Source: an uncultured Acidobacteriota bacterium
GTDB lineage: Bacteria; Acidobacteriota; Terriglobia; UBA7540
Direction: 5' to 3'
Length of the DNA stretch: 64,000 bases
NCBI GenBank assembly: GCA_963804995.1
Contig: CAWDSK010000005.1
Location: 352,001-416,000, forward strand
The notes beneath the pieces are model-generated. The model was not told the origin of the DNA and did no database searches. It worked only from the letters and a program-made list of their open reading frames with translations. Both the position numbers and the translations under genes were made by a program. This document shows positions 644 through 21,028 of the stretch, piece after piece. The first letter of the stretch is position 1. Each line of letters opens with the position of its first letter.

Positions 644-793
644 GTAGCGCGGTCCCCCGTTTTTTGGGGCCCGCGGTTCTTCATATGAAAAATCCGCAAA
701 TCTAGGCCATGGGCGGCCGCTTCTTCGCCAGGATAAGTTCGCTCAAATGGCAAAGGAAGAACCGCGGACCTCAACAGCGGAGGTCCGCGCGAC
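644..793 (+). repeat. REP-doublet element family A, copy 1
   Basis: GTAGCGCGGTCCCCCG-T-run-GGGGCCCGCGG left hairpin, conserved core, right hairpin CGCGGACCTCAACAGCGGAGGTCCGCG. Matches five other copies in the window. Confidence 0.9.
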
Positions 794-1530: not shown

Positions 1531-1683
1531 GTAGCGCGGTCCCCGTATTTGGGATCCGCGGTGCTTCATATGAAAGATCCACAAATCCTAAACCCGGGCG
1601 GCCACCCCACGCTGGTTTCTTCGCCACGGTACCTTCGCTCAGGGGGCGCACGAAGAACCGCGGACCTCAACGGCGGAGGTCCG
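1531..1683 (+). repeat. REP-doublet element family A, copy 2, interrupted by the group II intron (its last 6 bp, CGCTAC, lie at 3597-3602)
   Basis: Begins GTAGCGCGGTCCCCG and ends CGGACCTCAACGGCGGAGGTCCG at 1683. The terminal CGCTAC seen in intact copies follows the intron 3' end. Confidence 0.9.
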
Positions 1684-2085
1684 GTGCGCCGGGATAAACC
1701 GGCAGAAAGCAGAGAATGAAAATTTCTCACGAGGAAGGAGCAGCGATCCACTCGGCCCCGAGTTTTGCGCTGGGCGTCGTGAGGCGCACGGTGAAGCGTA
1801 AACAGGGGAATAGGTGGGCTGGGTATTGAGCTTCGAAAATGTCCAATCAGGACGCCGACGTTTTCAGACTAAACGGAAGGCAACATGAGGCCGGGACGCC
1901 AACGCGAGTTCCGGCACAGTCCTGCGTAGTCGTAGACCCCAGACACGCCTAGACACTTTCTGCACGAGAACCGGGAGACCTCGGAGGCGCCGGCCGCCGT
2001 AGATCGTGGCCGGACGGCGGGAAAAGGCGATGGCCGTACAGCCCGCCTGCACGCTTTCGAGGAGTCGGACAGCGGAACAGTACCG

Positions 2086-3522
2086 ATGAATCATTTGAAC
2101 AAAGACGGGAAGCCGTTGGCGGAGAATGAGGAGGGAAGGCCGCTGATCAAGGAGAACACCCGTTGGCCTAACACGCACCCGACACAGAGCGGGGCACGCG
2201 TGTCCCAGGGACTCGCGGGTGTGCGGAAAGCCGCGAAGGAACACAGGGAGATGAAGTTCACGGCCTTGCTCCACCACTTAACGGTCGATCTGCTGCGGGA
2301 AAGCTTTTACGCCTTGAAGCGAAAAGCTGCACCGGGAGTAGACGGCATGACGTGGCAGGAGTATGAAAGCGGGCTGGAAGGTCGACTCGTCGATCTGCAC
2401 AGCCGGGTCCACCGCGGAGCATTCCGAGCGAAGCCCTCGCGAAGGGCGTATATCCCGAAAGGCGACGGGCGGCAACGTCCGTTGGGGGTTGCGGCACTGG
2501 AGGACAAGATCGTCCAACAGGCCGTGGTCACCATCCTCAAGGCGATTTACGAGGAAGACTTTCTGGGCTTCTCGTATGGCTTTCGACCGGGATGCAGCCA
2601 GCATCAAGCGCTGGACGCGCTCTCGTACGCGCTCACGGTGAAGCACGTGAACTACGTTCTTGACGCGGACATTCGTGGATTTTTCGATTCGATATCCCAC
2701 GAATGGATGCTCAAGTTCGTGCAGCATCGCGTCGCCGACCCCCGGATTCTCCGGCTCATCCAGAAATGGCTGAAAGCCGGGGTGAGGGAGGAAGGCGAAT
2801 GGTCGGAGACGGAGATGGGTACGCCACAAGGGGCGGTGGTCTCGCCCCTGCTGGCGAATATCTATCTGCACTACGTCTTTGACCTGTGGGTGCAGGCGTG
2901 GCGCAAGAAGCACGCCCGGGGAGACGTGGTCGTGGTGCGGTATGCCGACGATACGGTCCTTGGATTCCAATCGCAGACGGAAGCCGACCGCTTTCTGGAG
3001 GATTTCCGGGAGCGGGTGGGGAAGTTTGGATTGGAACTGCATCCTGACAAAACGCGCCGGATCGAGTTCGGGCCGTTTGCCGAACTTTACCGGAAACGGA
3101 GAGGAGAAGGTAAGCCGGAGACGTTCGACTTTCTGGGCTTCACGCATATCAGCGGGAAGAACCGGAGGGGGCAATTTACCGTGAAGCGGAAGACGATCAG
3201 CAAGCGCCTGCGGGGGAAGTTGCAGGAACTCAAGCAACAACTCCGGCAGCGTCGGCACGATCCCATCGCGGATACGGGTAAATGGCTCCGGTCGGTCGTG
3301 CAAGGCTACTTCAACTATCACGCGGTACCGGGAAACCTCGACCGCCTGCGAATCTTTCGGGAACGGTTGACCCGACTGTGGCGAACACAACTGCGTCAAC
3401 GCAGTCAACGCCACCGCCTCAACTGGGACCGACTGGGGAAGCTTGCGGCCTGCTGGTTGCCTGCTCCGCACGTTGTGCATCCTTGGCCATCCCAACGGTT
3501 CGCCGCCACACATCCGAGATAA
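2086..3522 (+). CDS. ltrA: Group II intron reverse transcriptase/maturase
   Basis: KFTALLHH, AAPGVDG, RRAYIPKGDGRQRPLG, FSYGFRPG, DADIRGFFD, GTPQGAVVSPLLANIYL, VRYADD, FDFLGF and an X domain. No C-terminal HNH domain. Confidence 0.97.
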   Translation: MNHLNKDGKPLAENEEGRPLIKENTRWPNTHPTQSGARVSQGLAGVRKAAKEHREMKFTALLHHLTVDLLRESFYALKRKAAPGVDGMTWQEYESGLEGRLVDLHSRVHRGAFRAKPSRRAYIPKGDGRQRPLGVAALEDKIVQQAVVTILKAIYEEDFLGFSYGFRPGCSQHQALDALSYALTVKHVNYVLDADIRGFFDSISHEWMLKFVQHRVADPRILRLIQKWLKAGVREEGEWSETEMGTPQGAVVSPLLANIYLHYVFDLWVQAWRKKHARGDVVVVRYADDTVLGFQSQTEADRFLEDFRERVGKFGLELHPDKTRRIEFGPFAELYRKRRGEGKPETFDFLGFTHISGKNRRGQFTVKRKTISKRLRGKLQELKQQLRQRRHDPIADTGKWLRSVVQGYFNYHAVPGNLDRLRIFRERLTRLWRTQLRQRSQRHRLNWDRLGKLAACWLPAPHVVHPWPSQRFAATHPR

Positions 3523-3596
3523 GAGCCGTATGCGCTAACCAGCGCACGTACGGATCCGTGCGGGGGGTACCGGGTAACCGGTATCCCTACCGCAAC
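3523..3596 (+). ncRNA. Group II intron catalytic domains V and VI
   Basis: AGC triad hairpin, then the GGGGGTACCGGGTAACCGGTATCCCTACCGCAAC stem with bulged A and AAC terminus. Confidence 0.9.
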
Positions 3597-3655
3597 CGCT
3601 ACCTTGGCTGGTCGTGCGGGAAGGATTGTGCGCGCTCATTAATCGGCGCGCCAAT

Positions 3656-3787
3656 ATGAAGGTGGTCGCCGATGTGGAAGGGACTGTCAAAGTTCACGTG
3701 AATCATATTCTGGACAAGTTGGGAGTCAACGGGCGTACCGCGGCCATTGTCGCAGCATTAGAACGTGCCCTCCTGCATCTCCGGTAA
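3656..3787 (+). pseudogene. C-terminal fragment of a LuxR/NarL-type HTH response regulator
   Basis: Hand translation EGTVKVHVNHILDKLGVNGRTAAIVAALERALLHLR*. Receiver domain and first HTH helices are absent. Confidence 0.75.
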
Positions 3788-3997
3788 ACGGGGTGTGCCC
3801 CTAGGTTTCCAACCGCCGCGGTTCGGAACCAGAAGTTGAGGGAGAGTGAGGGGGCGGCACCCTATGTCGAAGGTTATAGTGCCTTTATATCCTTGGGGCT
3901 AGTTCTCCATAGGTCTTCAGTCCAATTGATTATTACCTGCCTGTCGGCAAACAATAGGCACAATTGATATGCATTTCATATTGTTTAGGAGTTACCT

Positions 3998-4455: not shown

Positions 4456-4606
4456 GTAGCGCGGTCCCCCGTTTTTTGATGGTCCGCGGCCCTTCAATTC
4501 AAAAATCCACAAATCCTAATTACGTGCGGCGGTTTCTTCGCCACAATACGTTCGCTCACGGGGCGCACGAAGAACCCCGGACCTCAACGGCGGAGGTCCG
4601 CGCTAC
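4456..4606 (+). repeat. REP-doublet element family A, copy 3 (intact; degenerate fragment just upstream at about 4390-4450)
   Basis: GTAGCGCGGTCCCCCG...GGACCTCAACGGCGGAGGTCCGCGCTAC. Confidence 0.9.
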
Positions 4607-4634
4607 ACTTCTTTCCGATTACGTGGCGGATTAA

Positions 4635-6341
4635 TCAGCGGGAACTAGGGTGACCCGCACCCGCTCCAGCGGGTGCAGCAGCCGGTGCGCCGTAAGAACG
4701 CGCCCCACAGCGCGTAGGGTTGCGCAGAAAATCTTCCAGCCAATCTGCGGAAACCACGCTGCCTTCCCAGGTCAGGTCGCGCGCTATAAATCCCTCTACT
4801 CCCTTATTGGGATGGCAACTGAAGCAACGCATATCGTTGATATTCTGGCTGGCGCGCCCCAGGGGTTTGGCGAGTGGTGCGGAAACGAAACGAAAAGCCG
4901 CAGGCTGCGTCTGCGCGCGGTCAGTAAGCGCCAGCAGCGCAGTCGCGAGCGCATCGATCTGCTCGTCTGTAACCTTGAAGCGTGGCATCTTGAGGGTAGG
5001 CGCGAAGGCGCGCGGGTTGCGAATCTTGTCGGCAATATAATTCGGCAGGGTGTGAGGCACGCCGGGGGCAAAAGCAATCTGGATTAGCGGCCTGCTGCCC
5101 ACGCGGCTCAGTTCCGGCGCAAACCCTTCCGGCTTCTTGATGCCGTTAATTTCGTGGCAGGAGGCGCATCCACGTTCCATTACCAATATTCGTCCATGGG
5201 CGATCTGGCTCGGGGTGGCTTCGGGGAGACGCACTTTGACTGGGAAATTGGGGTCGGTCCTGGATTCCAGGTATGCCTTCAAGTAGGCAATCTGCTCCGC
5301 CTTGAAACGGTAGTGCGGCATGGTGGTGGCAGGATTGTAAGCCGTGGGATCGCTCACCCACGATTCAATCCAGGACGCCTTGGCTTTTGAGCCGATGTGG
5401 GTCACGTCAGGCCCCATGTTGCGCCGCGCCAACTGGCCGGTAACGCTTTGGATGGTGTTGCGCAGGGCATGGCAGGATGCGCAAAACGCTTCACCATAAA
5501 TTTTTGCGCCCTCTTCGATCGCTTCCGGCCCTTGAACTTTTGGCACTCCCGGGGGATTCGCCAGGGGCGTGCTCTGTGCGATCAGGAAAGCCGAAAGGTC
5601 CAGCGCATCCGCATCGCTGAGCAGAAGATTGGGCATGGTGGCGGTATCGGAATAAGCCTGCGGATTTTTGATCCAGGCGTAGATCCATTCCCGCGTGGTC
5701 TTGTCGGCAACGTGCAGGAGCGGGGGAGGACTATCGGTTCCGGCCAGCGTGGTGCCGTCCGGCTGCTTCACCACGTGGCAATGCACACAGCCATTCTGGG
5801 CCAGCAGCAGTCGCCCCAGGTTCAATCGAGGCGTACCGGGCAAGGCTGCGAGGTGACACTGGCCGCAGGAGGCTTCCAGATACTTCGCGGGGAGTAGCGG
5901 CTGGTCCCATCCAGGCGTTCTGCCATGCGCAGCATCGACTGTGGTGGCGCTACCTTGTCCGCGGTGGCAAGCGACACAACCGAATTCCGTGAGCGTGTGG
6001 GGAATCGGCGGGTGGGGCCGAAAGGGCTCAGCCGAGGCATTTGCCAGGCTGGTTTCCTGAAGCGCCACATGGCAGGTGGTGCAGCGGTCAACAACGTCCT
6101 GCTCCGGCAACCAGATTTGCTGGAGTCCCTTTTGGAAATGCTTCTGCAACTCTGCTGAATCGGGGCGTCCTCGCACCAGGCGCAGGTATTGGTCTTGATA
6201 AACCCGCCAGGGGCTGAAGAGGTCTTTGACAGCGCCCACGGCAAAAGCCACTAGAAGCAGGAGGCTGACGGAACCAAAGGCGCGCGCGCTGTCGCCGAAG
6301 AATAAACGCCCAAGCGCACTGAGTTGTTGCCGGATTTTCAC
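4635..6341 (-). CDS. Membrane-anchored multiheme cytochrome c (7 CxxCH), C-terminus apparently truncated
   Basis: N-terminal TM helix; CTTCH, CVACH, CGQCH, CVHCH, CASCH, CASCH, CFSCH; repeated W..NP...MP class I cytochrome modules. Confidence 0.9.
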   Translation of the reverse strand: MKIRQQLSALGRLFFGDSARAFGSVSLLLLVAFAVGAVKDLFSPWRVYQDQYLRLVRGRPDSAELQKHFQKGLQQIWLPEQDVVDRCTTCHVALQETSLANASAEPFRPHPPIPHTLTEFGCVACHRGQGSATTVDAAHGRTPGWDQPLLPAKYLEASCGQCHLAALPGTPRLNLGRLLLAQNGCVHCHVVKQPDGTTLAGTDSPPPLLHVADKTTREWIYAWIKNPQAYSDTATMPNLLLSDADALDLSAFLIAQSTPLANPPGVPKVQGPEAIEEGAKIYGEAFCASCHALRNTIQSVTGQLARRNMGPDVTHIGSKAKASWIESWVSDPTAYNPATTMPHYRFKAEQIAYLKAYLESRTDPNFPVKVRLPEATPSQIAHGRILVMERGCASCHEINGIKKPEGFAPELSRVGSRPLIQIAFAPGVPHTLPNYIADKIRNPRAFAPTLKMPRFKVTDEQIDALATALLALTDRAQTQPAAFRFVSAPLAKPLGRASQNINDMRCFSCHPNKGVEGFIARDLTWEGSVVSADWLEDFLRNPTRCGARSYGAPAAAPAGAGAGHPSSR

Positions 6342-11540: not shown

Positions 11541-13487
11541 ATGAAGGCGAGGTCTAGCGAATCCCGGGCCCCAGCAAAATCTAAAAAGCGCGAGGGGCAG
11601 ATCGGAAACCTGACGAATGACCGCACACTGGGCATGAACGCGCGGATCTGCCGCCGCGATTTCCTGAACTCGGCGCTACTCGCTTCGGGAAGTGTGTTGC
11701 TCGAATCGCTGACCCCGCTCGAGCTCCTGGCGCAGCAGCCGGGCTGGGGAGGGTACACCGGAGAAGGCGATTACGCGGGTGCCAACGGGAACACGGAAGA
11801 GGTGATGCTGGCGGCGCATGCGGTGCGGGACGGGGTTTTCGATTCTCCTTCGACGGCGGTGGTGGACACGGGCGAGGTGTTTGACCTGGTGGTGGTGGGC
11901 GGTGGAATCAGCGGCCTGGCCTCGGCGTTGTACTTTAAGGACCAGGCGCAGCCCAAGCAGACCTGTCTGGTGCTCGAAAACCACCCCATTTTCGGCGGCC
12001 AGGCGCGGCGGAACGAATTCGTCGTGGATGGTCAGCGGCTGATTGCGCCGCAAGGGTCGAACTTTTTCTGGATGCCTCAACCGAAGCAGATCGAAGAGTT
12101 CTACACGCGCGTGGGTGTAGATCCGAGCCAGTTCAAATACCAGGAGTGGGGCGGTCCTCCACCGGCGATGCCGCTCAGCCACACCGGTTACTACTTCGCC
12201 CGCAATTTGCCGTCGCCCCCCAACTTCGGTTTTTACTTCGGTCCCAAGTTCGGCCAGCGGCCGGGAAAGTGGATTGTTGATCCCTGGAACAATTTGGACC
12301 AACTTCCCTTGTCGGCTGAAATGCGGTCTGATTTCGCCAAATACATCAAGGCGGTGATTGAGTACCACAATTCACCCCGGCATGATAGCACGGCGGAGTT
12401 GCGCCACTTTGACACCCTCACGGCTGAGGATGTGCTCATGGAGCGTCACGGCATCAGCCGCGAATTTCTCCGTTTGTTTCTCGCTCCCCATTCGGCGGCC
12501 GCCATTGGTTTAGGACCTGATGCCGTCACGGGTTTTCATTACGCGCTGTATGGTGCGGGCGATCGCCAGACGCGCCTTAGTTTTCCCGGTGGGAATACGG
12601 GTTTCACGCGGCACATTGTCAAGACACTCCTGCCGGAATCGATTCCCGGACCGCGCACGCTGGAAGCGGTTTGCCGCAATCGCGTGAACTTTGCTGCGCT
12701 GGATCGCTCTGCCAATCAGGTTCGCATCCGCTTGAAGTCGACAGCCGTCGCCGTCGAGCACGAAGGCGAGCCCCAGAAGTCCTCCTTGGTTCGCGTCACC
12801 TATATTCGCGACGGCAAAGTTTATCGCCTGAAGGCCCGCGCCGTGGTGATGGCGGGTGGCGGCTGGATTACCAAACACGTGGTGCGCGACCTGCCGGCCA
12901 CCCATCGTGAGGCCTATAACCAATTCAACTACTCGGCGAGCGTGGTGGCCAACGTGGCGGTGCGCAACTGGCGTTTCCTTCACAAACTGGGGCTTTCCGG
13001 CGGGCGCTGGTTCGAAGGTTTCGGCTTCTGGACGGAAGTGCGAACTATCGCCACCTTTGGCTCCGATAAGCCAACGATCGGGCCGGACTCTCCCACCGTC
13101 TTGTCGGTGATTGTGCCCTTCCATTATCCGGGCTTGCCGCTCGCCGAGCAGTGCAGCAAAGGCCGCGCGGAGCTGCTCTCCACGTCGTTTCGCGATTTCG
13201 AGCGGAATATTCGCGAACAATTTACGGAGATGTTTTCGATGTCCGGATTCGACGCGCGGCGGGATATTGCGGGGATTATCCTGAACCGGTGGGGGCACCA
13301 CTTCATAGTCCCCCAACCGGGGTTTATCTACGGAAAAGAGGGGAAACCCGCTCCCTCCGACATCCTGCGCAACGCGCCTTTTGGCAGGATTGCTTTTGCC
13401 AACACGGACCTGACGGGAGACAGTGGTCACGATCGGGCCATCATGGAGGGCCAGCGCGCCGTGAAGCAGCTTCTGTCTGCTTTGTAG
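11541..13487 (+). CDS. FAD-dependent oxidoreductase, spermidine dehydrogenase-like, paralog 1
   Basis: LGMNARICRRDFLN twin-arginine leader, DLVVVGGGISGL, LENHPIFGGQARRNEF, FPGGN, RDIAGIILNRWGH, PFGRIAFANTD. The stop TAG is supplied by the GTAG of repeat A copy 4. Confidence 0.88.
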   Translation: MKARSSESRAPAKSKKREGQIGNLTNDRTLGMNARICRRDFLNSALLASGSVLLESLTPLELLAQQPGWGGYTGEGDYAGANGNTEEVMLAAHAVRDGVFDSPSTAVVDTGEVFDLVVVGGGISGLASALYFKDQAQPKQTCLVLENHPIFGGQARRNEFVVDGQRLIAPQGSNFFWMPQPKQIEEFYTRVGVDPSQFKYQEWGGPPPAMPLSHTGYYFARNLPSPPNFGFYFGPKFGQRPGKWIVDPWNNLDQLPLSAEMRSDFAKYIKAVIEYHNSPRHDSTAELRHFDTLTAEDVLMERHGISREFLRLFLAPHSAAAIGLGPDAVTGFHYALYGAGDRQTRLSFPGGNTGFTRHIVKTLLPESIPGPRTLEAVCRNRVNFAALDRSANQVRIRLKSTAVAVEHEGEPQKSSLVRVTYIRDGKVYRLKARAVVMAGGGWITKHVVRDLPATHREAYNQFNYSASVVANVAVRNWRFLHKLGLSGGRWFEGFGFWTEVRTIATFGSDKPTIGPDSPTVLSVIVPFHYPGLPLAEQCSKGRAELLSTSFRDFERNIREQFTEMFSMSGFDARRDIAGIILNRWGHHFIVPQPGFIYGKEGKPAPSDILRNAPFGRIAFANTDLTGDSGHDRAIMEGQRAVKQLLSAL

Positions 13488-13629
13488 CGCGGACCTCCGC
13501 CGTTGAGGTCCGCGGTTCTTCGTGCGCCATTTGAGCGAATGTACCGGGGCAAAGAGGCCGCCTGGGTTTAGGCTTTGTGGATTTTTCAAATGAAGAGCCG
13601 CGGACCCCAAAACCGGGGGACCGCGCTAC
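13484..13629 (-). repeat. REP-doublet element family A, copy 4
   Basis: GTAGCGCGGACCTCCGCCGTTGAGGTCCGCGG...CCGCGGACCCCAAAACCGGGGGACCGCGCTAC, the reverse complement of copies 1-3. Confidence 0.9.
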
Positions 13630-20882: not shown

Positions 20883-21028
20883 GTAGCGCGGACCTCCGCC
20901 GTTGAGGTCCGCGGTTCTTTGTGCGCCCATTGAGCGAATGTATCGTGGAGAAGCCGCCGCCTGGGTTTAGGCTTTGTAGATTTTTCAGATGAAGAGCCGC
21001 GGACCCCAAAACCGGGGGACCGCGCTAC
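20883..21028 (-). repeat. REP-doublet element family A, copy 5 (abuts a different palindrome pair at about 20796-20882)
   Basis: Near-identical to copy 4. The preceding GCGGTAGCAGCAGCTACCGCCTT...AAGGCGGTAACTGC doublet is cut off at the junction. Confidence 0.9.

What the first reader, a model, noticed from the sequence alone, without database searches (positions are those of the whole stretch)
1531..3602. Group II intron inserted precisely into a multicopy REP-doublet element
Seen: the intron starts at 1684 directly after ...CGGAGGTCCG and ends at 3596 directly before CGCTAC. Joining the exons gives GGAGGTCCGCGCTAC, identical to the terminus of intact family A copies. A stem-loop in domain I (CGTTT-TCAGACT-AAACG, 1859-1875) presents CAGACU, which pairs with the exon end GGUCCG at 5 of 6 positions (one of them G-U) and is a candidate EBS1. 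The same exon end is unoccupied at 787/788, 4600/4601, 13489/13490 and 20888/20889. Established: hairpin-directed targeting is typical of class IIC introns (terminators, attC), but this IEP looks class E-like and lacks an endonuclease. Inference: the intron has specialised on a dispersed non-coding repeat. That would give it many harmless homing sites, and hairpin extrusion may supply the single-stranded target.
Basis: partly seen in the sequence, partly recalled or inferred. Interest (0 to 1): 0.82.

Follow-up and report, generated by a model that had tools for sequence, protein, structure and literature searches.

The report
Mobile intron colonising REP hairpin repeats
A self-splicing mobile intron has copied itself about forty times in this bacterium, always into the same spot of a small palindromic repeat (REP), which it finds by RNA-DNA base pairing and almost only on one strand relative to DNA replication.

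Summary
Window 1684-3596 (+) is a complete 1913-nt group II intron (Rfam RF02005; intact 478-aa RT/maturase, no endonuclease) inside the right-hand hairpin of a REP doublet. The genome has 40 loci of this intron (>=99.7% identical). Every readable 5' flank is a REP hairpin ending GGTC(T/C)G|CGC. The proposed EBS1 (CAGACU, 1865-1870) is right: relatives with other 5' exons have matching changes in that loop, and GGTCTG sites are occupied far more often than GGTCCG sites (29 of 58 against 3 of 56). A second contact (EBS2 UGUC, 1840-1843) pairs with the hairpin loop. 39 of 40 copies point along the inferred fork direction, as expected for endonuclease-less retrohoming into the lagging-strand template. 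The repeats are true REPs, because two RAYT genes are flanked by them. The intron is class E (58% identical to a class-E-labelled IEP), not IIC. A sister species has a 92%-identical intron in its own REPs, with EBS1 changed to match. Whether the hairpin fold itself is needed is unresolved: IBS1 lies inside the stem, so folding would mask it. This scan already reported the same intron family from other copies in this genome. I rate it a new variant of a known strategy (RmInt1 into IS elements, IIC after stem-loops).

The parts
1531..1683 (+). 5' exon: the REP doublet (family A, head GTAGCGCGG...) up to the insertion point. The left REP is at about 1531-1562, in the opposite orientation.
   Evidence: Alignment with four empty copies; sequence read.
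1659..1683 (+). Right-hand REP hairpin, interrupted by the intron: 5' arm CGCGGACCTC 1659-1668, loop AACGGCG 1669-1675, 3' arm GAGGTCCG 1676-1683. The arm continues as CG at 3597-3598.
   Evidence: Read. An empty copy (4566-4608) folds as an 8-bp stem with a 7-nt loop, -8.4 kcal/mol as DNA.
1672..1675 (+). Candidate IBS2 (GGCG, positions -12 to -9), in the hairpin loop.
   Evidence: EBS2/IBS2 covariation; occupancy depends on C(-10)R(-9).
1678..1683 (+). IBS1 (GGTCCG, the minority variant with a C.A mismatch at -2; most copies have GGTCTG).
1684..3596 (+). Group II intron, class E (IIB-like), 1913 nt. This copy is identical to the consensus of the 37 copies of 1913 nt.
1719..1939 (+). Domain I core matched by Rfam RF02005 (group-II-D1D4-6).
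   Evidence: 170.2 bits, E 1.9e-49. The same model hits a class-E-labelled intron.
1840..1843 (+). Candidate EBS2 (UGUC), in the single-stranded stretch AAAA-UGUCC-AAUC.
   Evidence: 4 of 4 pairs with -12 to -9 in 54% of 24 cognate rows, against 10% of mismatched controls.
1859..1875 (+). EBS1 stem-loop; EBS1 is CAGACU at 1865-1870.
   Evidence: Rfam structure line. Covariation with the 5' exons of relatives. No variation among the 38 copies.
2086..3522 (+). Intron-encoded protein: 478 aa, reverse transcriptase plus maturase, no endonuclease domain.
   Evidence: ORF; TIGR04416 342.5 bits; Pfam finds RVT_1 only; 58.0% identity to a class-E-labelled IEP.
3521..3596 (+). Domains V and VI. Domain V is about 3523-3556. 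The candidate branch-point A is 3589 (bulged, 7 nt from the 3' end).
   Evidence: RF00029 39.2 bits, gathering score 40. The branch A is my reading of that alignment.
3597..3602 (+). 3' exon: the REP terminus CGCTAC. C3597 is IBS3 (position +1).
   Evidence: 39 of 39 3' junctions start CGC.
644..793 (+). Unoccupied family-A doublet; target junction 787/788 (GGTCCG|CGC).
4456..4606 (+). Unoccupied family-A doublet; target junction 4600/4601 (GGTCCG|CGC).
13484..13629 (-). Unoccupied family-A doublet; target junction 13490/13489, on the unfavoured strand.
20883..21028 (-). Unoccupied family-A doublet; target junction 20889/20888, on the unfavoured strand.

Best explanation
This is a recently active class E (IIB-like) group II intron with no endonuclease. 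Its guide sequences are set to the REP repeats of its host. EBS1 (CAGACU) pairs with the last six bases of the REP 3' arm (GGTCTG; shown). EBS2 (UGUC) pairs with four bases of the hairpin loop at -12 to -9 (supported). The first 3'-exon base is always C (IBS3; its partner in the intron was not located). [quoted passage not shown] This step is inferred from the strand bias and the lack of an endonuclease. REPs are spread by RAYT transposases to hundreds of intergenic places, so the intron gains many harmless homing sites and has reached about 40 copies. Every insertion splits a REP hairpin, including REPs that flank two RAYT genes. The window copy sits in a poorer site (GGTCCG, one mismatch to EBS1).
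For: Copies and boundaries: 38 complete copies, one cut at base 10 by a contig start, and one 5' fragment at a contig end, all >=99.69% identical. There are 20 variable positions, none in EBS1 or EBS2. 38 reading frames are intact and 1 is truncated. Target: all 37 5' flanks of at least 34 nt show the inverted-repeat arms, and 39 of 39 3' flanks start CGC (24 CGCTAC, 13 CGCCAG). EBS1: relatives with 5' exons TTGTAC, GCTCTG, GGAGTT, TAGCCA, ATCATT, GTCAGG, CTGACA, AAATTC, CCAGTA and TACTGG carry the complement in the same loop. Cognate pairs reach 6 of 6 in 46% of 24 rows, against 7.5% of mismatched controls. On the favoured strand, GGTCTG hairpins are 29 occupied and 29 empty, against 3 occupied and 53 empty for GGTCCG (p=5.5e-8). 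EBS2. Among stem sites on the favoured strand, those with C(-10)R(-9) are 26 occupied and 21 empty, the others 2 and 90. For type-2 REPs, my count from the list is 11 occupied and 0 empty with CR, against 2 and 8 without. Strand: 39 of 40 loci are co-oriented with the inferred fork direction (p=7e-11). GGTCTG hairpins on the other strand are 1 occupied and 80 empty. dnaA at C2:124 kb splits the C2 copies correctly, and the single rRNA operon agrees for C6. The orientation of the upstream gene makes no difference (17 of 33 against 13 of 27 occupied). REP identity: two genes match NF047646 REP-associated tyrosine transposase (111.9 and 115.9 bits, cut-off 80), and each is flanked by one of the two REP types. 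Class. Sister species G005: 6 of 6 copies of a 92% relative are in REPs, with EBS1 CGGACU and EBS2 CGUU matching them. RmInt1 precedent for the lagging-template bias: PMC5894124, passages read.
Against: Nothing here shows RNA, splicing or movement directly, and no contig of four public runs bridges 1683 to 3597. Fork direction is inferred from weak GC skew (contig means between about -2.6% and +1.4%), one dnaA gene and one rRNA operon in a 9-contig assembly; local 300-kb skew gives a noisier split of 27 to 7. Pairing alone does not explain the site choice: on the favoured strand, 0 of 106 non-hairpin sites with GGTCTG|C and C(-10)R(-9) are occupied, and 0 of 9 that also have CGC. So something else in the REP counts (the 5' arm, the fold, or +2 to +5), or selection removes other insertions. 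In G005 4 of 6 sites have a mismatch at -4. EBS2 pairing with type-1 REPs relies on two G-U pairs, and several lineages show no EBS2 match. EBS3 was not located.
Confidence: 0.8

Rival explanations
1. Structure-directed targeting, convergent with IIC introns. The RNP recognises the folded REP hairpin on single-stranded DNA. EBS2 contacts the exposed loop, EBS1 (the same five letters as the 5' arm, CAGAC) displaces that arm, and a lagging-strand polymerase stalled at the stem base supplies the primer.
For: No insertion lies outside a hairpin: on the favoured strand 0 of 604 non-stem GGTCTG|C sites are occupied, 0 of 106 with the IBS2-like CR, and 0 of 9 that also have CGC. About four REP-like 3'-arm-only remnants among those are empty. 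IBS2 lies in the loop and EBS1 copies the 5' arm. A second sub-lineage (5' end GAUAGCG; L039, L042, G000 C1:440866) also sits at the 3' arm of hairpins, with EBS1 CAGAGC equal to their 5' arm. Occupied stems vary by compensatory changes (CCTC/GAGG, CCCC/GGGG, CTCC/GGAG).
Against: A folded stem hides IBS1. Sequence and structure are confounded in a palindrome, so an IEP contact to the 5'-arm sequence at -14 to -25 would look the same. Most non-hairpin sites lie in genes, where selection could remove insertions. Relatives with the same architecture home to non-hairpin sites. The G005 subfamily with the same EBS1 CAGACU has only 1 of 4 copies in a hairpin.
Confidence: 0.2
2. Selection only. The intron inserts wherever GGTCTG|C occurs, and only insertions in harmless REPs survive.
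For: About 80% of the genome is covered by long ORFs, so most of the 604 non-stem sites are probably in genes. Bacterial group II introns are generally found outside essential genes (PMC7306698, passages read).
Against: The copies differ by 0.18% on average, which leaves little time for purging. Half of any genic insertions would be in the sense orientation and could be spliced out. Selection does not explain the dependence on -9/-10 or on the -2 mismatch within REPs, nor the 1-of-81 occupancy on the other strand.
Confidence: 0.1
3. The copies spread as DNA: REP-plus-intron units were duplicated or moved by the RAYT, with no retrohoming.
For: Some copies lie in tandem REP arrays or next to each other (C7:1-1904 and 1974-3886; C6:2168574-2170486 and 2170751-2172663 share the same 3' flank).
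Against: Two different REP families are hit, with different loops and outer flanks. The 3' flanks beyond CGCTAC or CGCCAG differ at nearly all loci. All intron ends are exact. The strand bias and the dependence on EBS pairing are not expected for DNA duplication.
Confidence: 0.03

Closest known systems
RmInt1 and RmInt2 of Sinorhizobium meliloti (class D, IIB3, no endonuclease)
   Same: The IEP is RT/maturase only. The homing site lies in a multicopy mobile element (ISRm2011-2; the inverted repeats of ISRm17). Recognition is by EBS/IBS pairing. Retrohoming goes into single-stranded DNA at forks, with a bias to the lagging-strand template (PMC5894124, passages read).
   Different: A different IEP class (D, not E). 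The target there is an insertion sequence, not a 25-35-nt REP hairpin. RmInt1 has about 10 copies in strain GR4, against about 40 here.
Class C (IIC) introns, e.g. B.h.I1 and the attC-inserting S.ma.I2
   Same: No endonuclease. Insertion sites are tied to DNA stem-loops in non-coding DNA, giving many harmless sites (PMC4424553 and PMC7306698, passages read; PMC1702495, abstract only, in the listing).
   Different: IIC introns lack EBS2 and part of EBS1 (PMC3753933) and insert after the stem-loop. This intron has a 6-bp EBS1 and an EBS2, inserts inside the 3' arm, matches a different Rfam D1 model, and its IEP is nearest to class E.
Class E introns, e.g. the intron of Paraburkholderia phymatum pBPHY02 (170168-171910; labelled E in Table S1 of PMC7306698) and Cl.be.I2
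   Same: 58.0% IEP identity. The same Rfam model RF02005 (184 bits there, 170 here). No endonuclease. A 6-bp EBS1 in the same loop.
   Different: The P. phymatum copy and its Ralstonia solanacearum relative sit at non-hairpin sites (...CCCTACTGG| and ...CATCCAGTA|). No REP association or comparable copy number is reported for class E in the texts I read.
REP-targeting insertion sequences (ISPpu9, ISPpu10, ISPa11, IS1397) and the Pseudomonas putida KT2440 group II intron
   Same: REPs serve as landing sites for other mobile elements. The table in PMC1525189 lists the KT2440 group II intron with 2 of 9 copies associated with REPs (passage read).
   Different: Those are mostly DNA transposons. 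The KT2440 intron is REP-associated in only 22% of copies, and no EBS match is described in the passage I read. Here every readable flank is a REP, and the guide sequences match it.

Membership tests
Group II intron (mobile, ORF-containing) | Conserved domain I core and domains V/VI, with a GUGYG 5' end and an AY 3' end | tested here: met
   RF02005 170.2 bits. RF00029 39.2 bits, 0.8 below its gathering score, ending at 3596. GUGCG at 1684 and AC at 3595-3596.
Group II intron (mobile, ORF-containing) | RT/maturase encoded in domain IV | tested here: met
   TIGR04416 342.5 bits, cut-off 300; RVT_1 136 bits.
Bacterial class E (IEP-based class; IIB-like RNA) | The IEP groups with class E IEPs | tested here: met
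   58.0% identity over residues 5-478 (512 bits) to the IEP of an intron labelled E in Table S1 of PMC7306698. Identity is 35% to the CL1-labelled intron and 35%/24% to the F-labelled intron of the same plasmid. This is a nearest-labelled-neighbour test, not a full phylogeny.
Bacterial class E (IEP-based class; IIB-like RNA) | Class-typical domain I RNA | tested here: met
   The E-labelled intron hits RF02005, the F-labelled one RF02003, and the CL1-labelled one RF02012. The window intron hits RF02005. There is one labelled example per class.
Bacterial class E (IEP-based class; IIB-like RNA) | No D/En (HNH) domain | tested here: met
   Pfam finds only RVT_1 at E<=0.001. The protein ends about 40 residues after the TIGR04416 match. 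Classes C, D, E and F lack En (PMC4424553).
Bacterial class E (IEP-based class; IIB-like RNA) | IIE/IIF oddities: alpha' on a terminal loop in DId3, an extra bulge in DId3, a 5-nt domain V loop (PMC3753933) | tested here: inconclusive
   The domain V loop reads AACC (4 nt) or UAACCA (6 nt), depending on a U-A pair. Alpha-alpha' was not located.
Class C / IIC introns | Short EBS1 and no EBS2 | tested here: not met
   6-bp EBS1-IBS1 with covariation, plus a 4-nt EBS2 supported by covariation.
Class C / IIC introns | Insertion just downstream of a terminator or attC stem-loop | tested here: not met
   The insertion is 2 nt inside the stem base, within the 3' arm. No T run follows (the next bases are CGCTAC or CGCCAG).
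Class C / IIC introns | IEP of class C | tested here: not met
   The solved IIC RTs score 137-140 bits, no better than a non-IIC maturase (6me0, 144 bits) (the class of each chain is recalled). The nearest labelled IEP is class E.
REP / RAYT system (the target repeat) | A short imperfect palindrome repeated many times, mostly between genes | tested here: met
   About 250 hairpins with a perfect stem of at least 7 bp end in GTC(T/C)G|CGC. The 15-mer occurs 9 times in the window, against 0.15 expected. By crude ORF calls, 29 of 109 empty GGTCTG hairpins overlap an ORF.
REP / RAYT system (the target repeat) | A RAYT gene flanked by its REPs | tested here: met
   NF047646 hits of 111.9 and 115.9 bits (cut-off 80) at G000:C5:58.4-58.9 kb and C6:722.3-723.0 kb. 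They are flanked by type-1 and type-2 REPs respectively (positions).

The most novel reading that the evidence does not exclude
A IIB-type (class E) intron has independently arrived at hairpin-assisted homing without an endonuclease. On the lagging-strand template the REP folds. EBS2 docks on the exposed loop. EBS1, a copy of the hairpin's own 5' arm, invades the stem by strand displacement. The lagging-strand polymerase, stalled at the stem base 2 nt downstream, provides the primer for cDNA synthesis. In parallel, the intron's guides co-evolve with the REP variants of each host species, so the intron acts as a parasite, and possibly a brake, on the RAYT/REP system.
Probability: 0.2. Interest if true: 0.8.

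Novelty: new variant of a known kind. Interest (0 to 1): 0.58.

Why it matters
Bacterial group II introns are known to survive by hiding after terminators (IIC) or inside other mobile elements (RmInt1 in an IS). This case adds REPs, the most abundant non-coding repeats of many bacteria, as a dedicated homing target. The data set is unusually clean: about 250 near-identical natural target sites in one genome, differing in strand, in one IBS1 base and in loop bases, with occupancy following each of these. That amounts to a natural mutational scan of target rules for a class E intron, a class with little mobility data. It also gives a strong genomic signature of replication-coupled retrohoming. 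It shows guide sequences being retuned between sister species, and it links two selfish systems (RAYT/REP and an intron) that both depend on single-stranded DNA at the fork. The question of whether a DNA hairpin helps an endonuclease-less intron can be tested directly with these sequences.

Tried and rejected
1. Class from solved structures. A non-IIC maturase (6me0, 144 bits), the IIC RTs (137-140) and LtrA (118) score too close together to decide. I used labelled introns from a paper's supplement instead.
2. Public sequencing runs. No run holds more than 0.30 of the sampled words. Contigs of four runs (two DNA, two from RNA libraries) cover parts of the intron, some of them identical, but none bridges 1683 to 3597. 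They say nothing about splicing, empty alleles, expression or habitat.
3. Folding a whole doublet as one long REPIN-type hairpin: -24.4 kcal/mol, z -0.53, no better than shuffles.
4. Local 300-kb GC skew as the strand marker gives 27 to 7. Contig-level skew gives 32 to 2. Splitting C2 at dnaA gives 39 to 1 over all 40 loci.
5. Transcription direction as the cause of the strand bias: rejected, because occupancy on the favoured strand is the same with co-oriented and opposed upstream ORFs (crude ORF calls).
6. My regular expressions for intron 5' ends missed loci with GAAAGCG or GAUAGCG starts. I read those by eye.
7. blastn with one doublet finds only 35 hits of at least 120 nt, at about 78% identity. 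The doublet interior is diverged, and only the REP hairpins are well conserved.
8. The IIE-specific RNA details (alpha', domain V loop) could not be settled.
9. Literature. Searches for 'group II intron' with 'repetitive extragenic palindromic', 'RAYT' and 'REP element' found no report of a REP-specialised intron other than the 2-of-9 entry for P. putida in PMC1525189. The library lacks most subscription journals, and Toro et al. 2002 (Gene 299:245) on class E was not readable.
Full report
**What is at the coordinates**

The sequence shows GTGCG at 1684, directly after ...GGCGGAGGTCCG. It shows ...CCCTACCGCAAC ending at 3596, directly before CGCTAC.

- Rfam places a domain I core (RF02005, group-II-D1D4-6) at 1719-1939 with 170.2 bits.
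- With looser thresholds, Rfam places domains V/VI (RF00029) at 3521-3596 with 39.2 bits. That is 0.8 below the gathering score, and the match ends exactly at 3596.
- The ORF at 2086-3522 encodes 478 aa. It matches TIGR04416 group II RT/maturase (342.5 bits, cut-off 300).
- In Pfam it matches only RVT_1, so there is no endonuclease domain.

**The repeat**

The joined-exon 15-mer occurs in the window 9 times at up to 2 mismatches, against 0.15 expected. The matches form four pairs of inverted termini about 135 nt apart. Aligning the four empty elements with the 5' exon gives a roughly 150-bp doublet, GTAGCGCGGTCCCC...CCGCGGACCTCAACGGCGGAGGTCCGCGCTAC. The intron interrupts the right-hand hairpin.

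- In this copy the 5' arm is 1659-1668 and the loop is 1669-1675.
- The 3' arm is 1676-1683 and continues at 3597-3598.
- The insertion point is therefore 2 nt inside the base of the stem.
- An empty copy folds, as single-stranded DNA, into an 8-bp stem with a 7-nt loop at -8.4 kcal/mol.

**Genome-wide picture**

blastn of the intron against the 7.55-Mb, 9-contig genome finds:

- 38 copies aligned exactly over 1-1913;
- one copy cut at base 10 by a contig start;
- one 5' fragment at a contig end;
- five short diverged fragments.

All full copies are >=99.69% identical. There are 37 copies of 1913 nt and one of 1914 nt. They differ at 20 positions, with a mean of 3.4 pairwise differences. None of the differences is in EBS1 or EBS2, and the window copy equals the consensus. 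38 reading frames are intact and one is truncated.

The flanks are uniform:

- All 37 5' flanks with at least 34 readable bases show the inverted-repeat arms.
- All 39 3' junctions start CGC: 24 CGCTAC, 13 CGCCAG and 2 others.
- Two REP types are hit. Type 1 is GAAGAACCGCAGACCTC-loop-GGAGGTCTG|CGCTAC. Type 2 is ATCGCAGACCCC-loop-GGGGTCTG|CGCCAGCC.
- The exon ends GGTCTG at 33 junctions and GGTCCG at 4, one of them the window copy.

**These repeats are true REPs**

Pfam Y1_Tnp finds 14 places in the genome. Two of them lie next to intron copies, at C5:58.4-58.9 kb and C6:722.3-723.0 kb. Both match NCBIfam NF047646, REP-associated tyrosine transposase (111.9 and 115.9 bits, cut-off 80). The first is flanked by type-1 REPs and the second by type-2 REPs (positions listed). 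At both loci the intron has entered a flanking REP.

**EBS1 is confirmed**

Two ORF-less paralogues in this genome have other 5' exons and carry the complement in the homologous loop:

- C6:842412-842676: exon ..TTGTAC, loop UGUGUACAUGU.
- C1:440866-441115: exon ..GCTCTG, loop GUCAGAGCA.

Relatives in other genomes of the genus do the same: GGAGTT/AACUUC, TAGCCA/UGGCUA, ATCATT/AAUGAU, GTCAGG/CCUGAC, CTGACA/UGUCAG, AAATTC/GAAUUU. So do class E introns on plasmids of Ralstonia solanacearum (CCAGTA/UACUGG) and Paraburkholderia phymatum (TACTGG/CCAGUA).

In a scripted comparison of 24 intron-exon rows, cognate pairs reach 6 of 6 in 46%, against 7.5% of mismatched controls. The rows are not all independent.

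Within this genome the single base difference matters. On the favoured strand, GGTCTG hairpins are 29 occupied and 29 empty. GGTCCG hairpins, which give a C.A mismatch at -2, are 3 occupied and 53 empty (p=5.5e-8). The window copy is one of those rare insertions.

**A second contact**

The four bases after the conserved AAAA in the single-stranded stretch of domain I (UGUC, 1840-1843) can pair with -12 to -9 of the 5' exon. In the REP this is the 3' half of the hairpin loop.

- Cognate rows give 4 of 4 pairs in 54%, against 10% of mismatched controls.
- Six lineages show full matches: TGTC, CGTT, TTGC, ACGC, GCCT and TCGG. Several show none.
- Among stem sites on the favoured strand, C(-10)R(-9) sites are 26 occupied and 21 empty, and the rest are 2 and 90.
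- For type-2 REPs, my count from the list is 11 occupied and 0 empty with CR, against 2 occupied and 8 empty without it. Good type-2 sites on that strand therefore look saturated.
- Type-1 sites are about half filled, and many empty ones lie in tandem arrays.

**Strand**

Contig-level GC skew gave 32 occupied sites on the G-rich strand and 2 on the other. For that count I dropped 5 junctions that had short flanks, imperfect stems or no 3' end.

- dnaA lies at C2:124231-124713. The two C2 copies to its left point left and the three to its right point right.
- The only rRNA operon is on the minus strand of C6, where all 15 copies are on the minus strand.
- With C2 split at dnaA, 39 of 40 loci are co-oriented with the inferred fork movement (p=7e-11). 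The exception is C3:231098-233010.
- GGTCTG hairpins on the opposite strand are 1 occupied and 80 empty (p=1e-12).

[quoted passage not shown] That is the bias reported for the endonuclease-less RmInt1 (PMC5894124, passages read).

Using crude ORF calls, the direction of the upstream ORF has no effect: 17 of 33 occupied against 13 of 27 on the favoured strand. Transcription is therefore not the cause of the bias.

**Class**

- Table S1 of Waldern et al. 2020 (PMC7306698; supplement rows read) labels the intron at NC_010627.1:170168-171910 as class E.
- The window IEP is 58.0% identical to that IEP over residues 5-478.
- It is 35% identical to the CL1-labelled intron and 35%/24% to the F-labelled intron of the same plasmid.
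- Rfam gives RF02005 for the E-labelled intron, RF02003 for the F-labelled one and RF02012 for the CL1-labelled one.

It has a 6-bp EBS1 and an EBS2, whereas IIC introns lack EBS2 and part of EBS1 (PMC3753933). It also inserts within the stem, not after it.

**Relatives**

- In G005 (same genus), all six copies of a 92%-identical intron sit at the same position of that genome's REPs (CGGACCCC-loop-GGGG(G/T)CCG|CGCTAC). Their EBS1 is CGGACU and their EBS2 is CGUU, both fitting those REPs. Four of the six have a mismatch at -4.
- Closer or equally close relatives elsewhere (85-87% IEP identity in G021 and G013) target other sequences, some of them also repeated, with matching EBS1.
- A G005 subfamily (83%) with the same EBS1 CAGACU and an odd 5' end (GAAAGCG) has only 1 of 4 copies in a REP-like hairpin.
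- Another sub-lineage (5' end GAUAGCG) sits at the 3' arm of hairpins GGCGCAGAGC-loop-GCTCTG|, with EBS1 CAGAGC.
- Two other intron families in this genome (6 and 3 copies) are not in REPs.

REP homing is therefore a retargeting within one young lineage, and not a class property.

**What remains open**

Pairing alone does not explain the site choice.

- On the favoured strand, 0 of 604 GGTCTG|C sites without a stem are occupied.
- 0 of 106 such sites that also have C(-10)R(-9) are occupied.
- 0 of 9 that also have CGC are occupied, against 26 of 47 with a stem.

The extra requirement could be the 5'-arm sequence read by the protein, the fold, positions +2 to +5, or selection against insertions in genes. 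A palindrome confounds the first two. A folded stem would hide IBS1, yet it would expose IBS2 in the loop, and EBS1 is a copy of the 5' arm. A loop-first, strand-invasion route is therefore conceivable, but it is untested.

No RNA or population evidence was obtained.

**Comparison and novelty**

- The nearest functional parallels are RmInt1 and RmInt2: endonuclease-less, homing into multicopy insertion sequences, with a lagging-template bias.
- For the association with stem-loops, the nearest parallel is IIC introns.
- REPs are known targets of insertion sequences. One table lists a P. putida group II intron with 2 of 9 copies at REPs (PMC1525189).
- My three searches found no description of an intron whose guides are matched to REPs and whose copies are all in REPs. 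The survey text of PMC7306698 does not contain the words repeat, palindrome or hairpin.
- Earlier reports of this same scan, on other copies in this genome, reached the same main conclusion.

I rate it a new variant of a known strategy.

Noticed in passing
G000:C5:58398-58919 (+) and G000:C6:722279-722974 (-); outside the window: Two RAYT (REP-associated tyrosine transposase) genes, each flanked by one of the two REP types. Each has an intron copy inserted in a flanking REP (C5:56440-58352 and C6:720305-722217).
   Followed up: partly
G000:C3:230429-231097; C6:993128-993963; C1:614814-615252; C5:59050-59545: REP units stand in tandem arrays with periods of about 167 or 146 bp. The only intron copy on the unfavoured strand (C3:231098) is the next unit of one such array.
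   Followed up: no
G000 contig ends: C6:2170751-2172663, C9:388252-390164, C7:1-1904, C2:6-649: Four contig ends fall in or at intron copies, so this repeat probably breaks the assembly and the true copy number may be higher. Two pairs of copies lie very close together (C7: 69 nt apart; C6:2168574-2172663: 264 nt apart).
   Followed up: no
G000:C1:26832, C5:1086397, C5:1125547, C6:295292, C6:297248, C4:162021; and C1:97456, C1:290128, C3:1126898: Two further group II intron families (IEPs 32-34% identical to this one) have their own conserved 5' exons (..AGTTTTGGCGAAGGA| and ..CCCTAGCCCGCAATTCTCA|). They are not in REP hairpins.
   Followed up: partly
G000:C1:440866-441115; L039 (G005:C13); L042 (G017:C7); L034, L035, L038, L040 (G005): In these relatives the 5' exon/IBS1 abuts GAUAGCG or GAAAGCG instead of GUGCG. 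Either the 5' splice site is unusual or these copies are decaying. Some still encode full-length IEPs.
   Followed up: no
G000:C2:652257-652358, C5:460087-460194, C3:1331349, C5:615745: Short 5' fragments of related introns. Their flanks (GGGAGTT|, GGTAGCCA|, GAAATTC|) equal the homing sites of full-length relatives in other genomes of the genus (G021, G013, G007). This suggests past residence of those lineages here.
   Followed up: partly
L003 (G021:C257): The 85% relative lies between two copies of a tandem repeat (TTCTATNCCCACGATRTGTATGAAAG...), so that lineage too may home to a repeated non-coding element.
   Followed up: no
window 3667-3787 (+) and 4635-6341 (-): Just downstream of the intron is a short ORF resembling the C-terminal helix-turn-helix of LuxR-type regulators. 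It is followed by a 568-aa multi-haem cytochrome c-like ORF on the other strand. I recognised both by eye from the translations.
   Followed up: no
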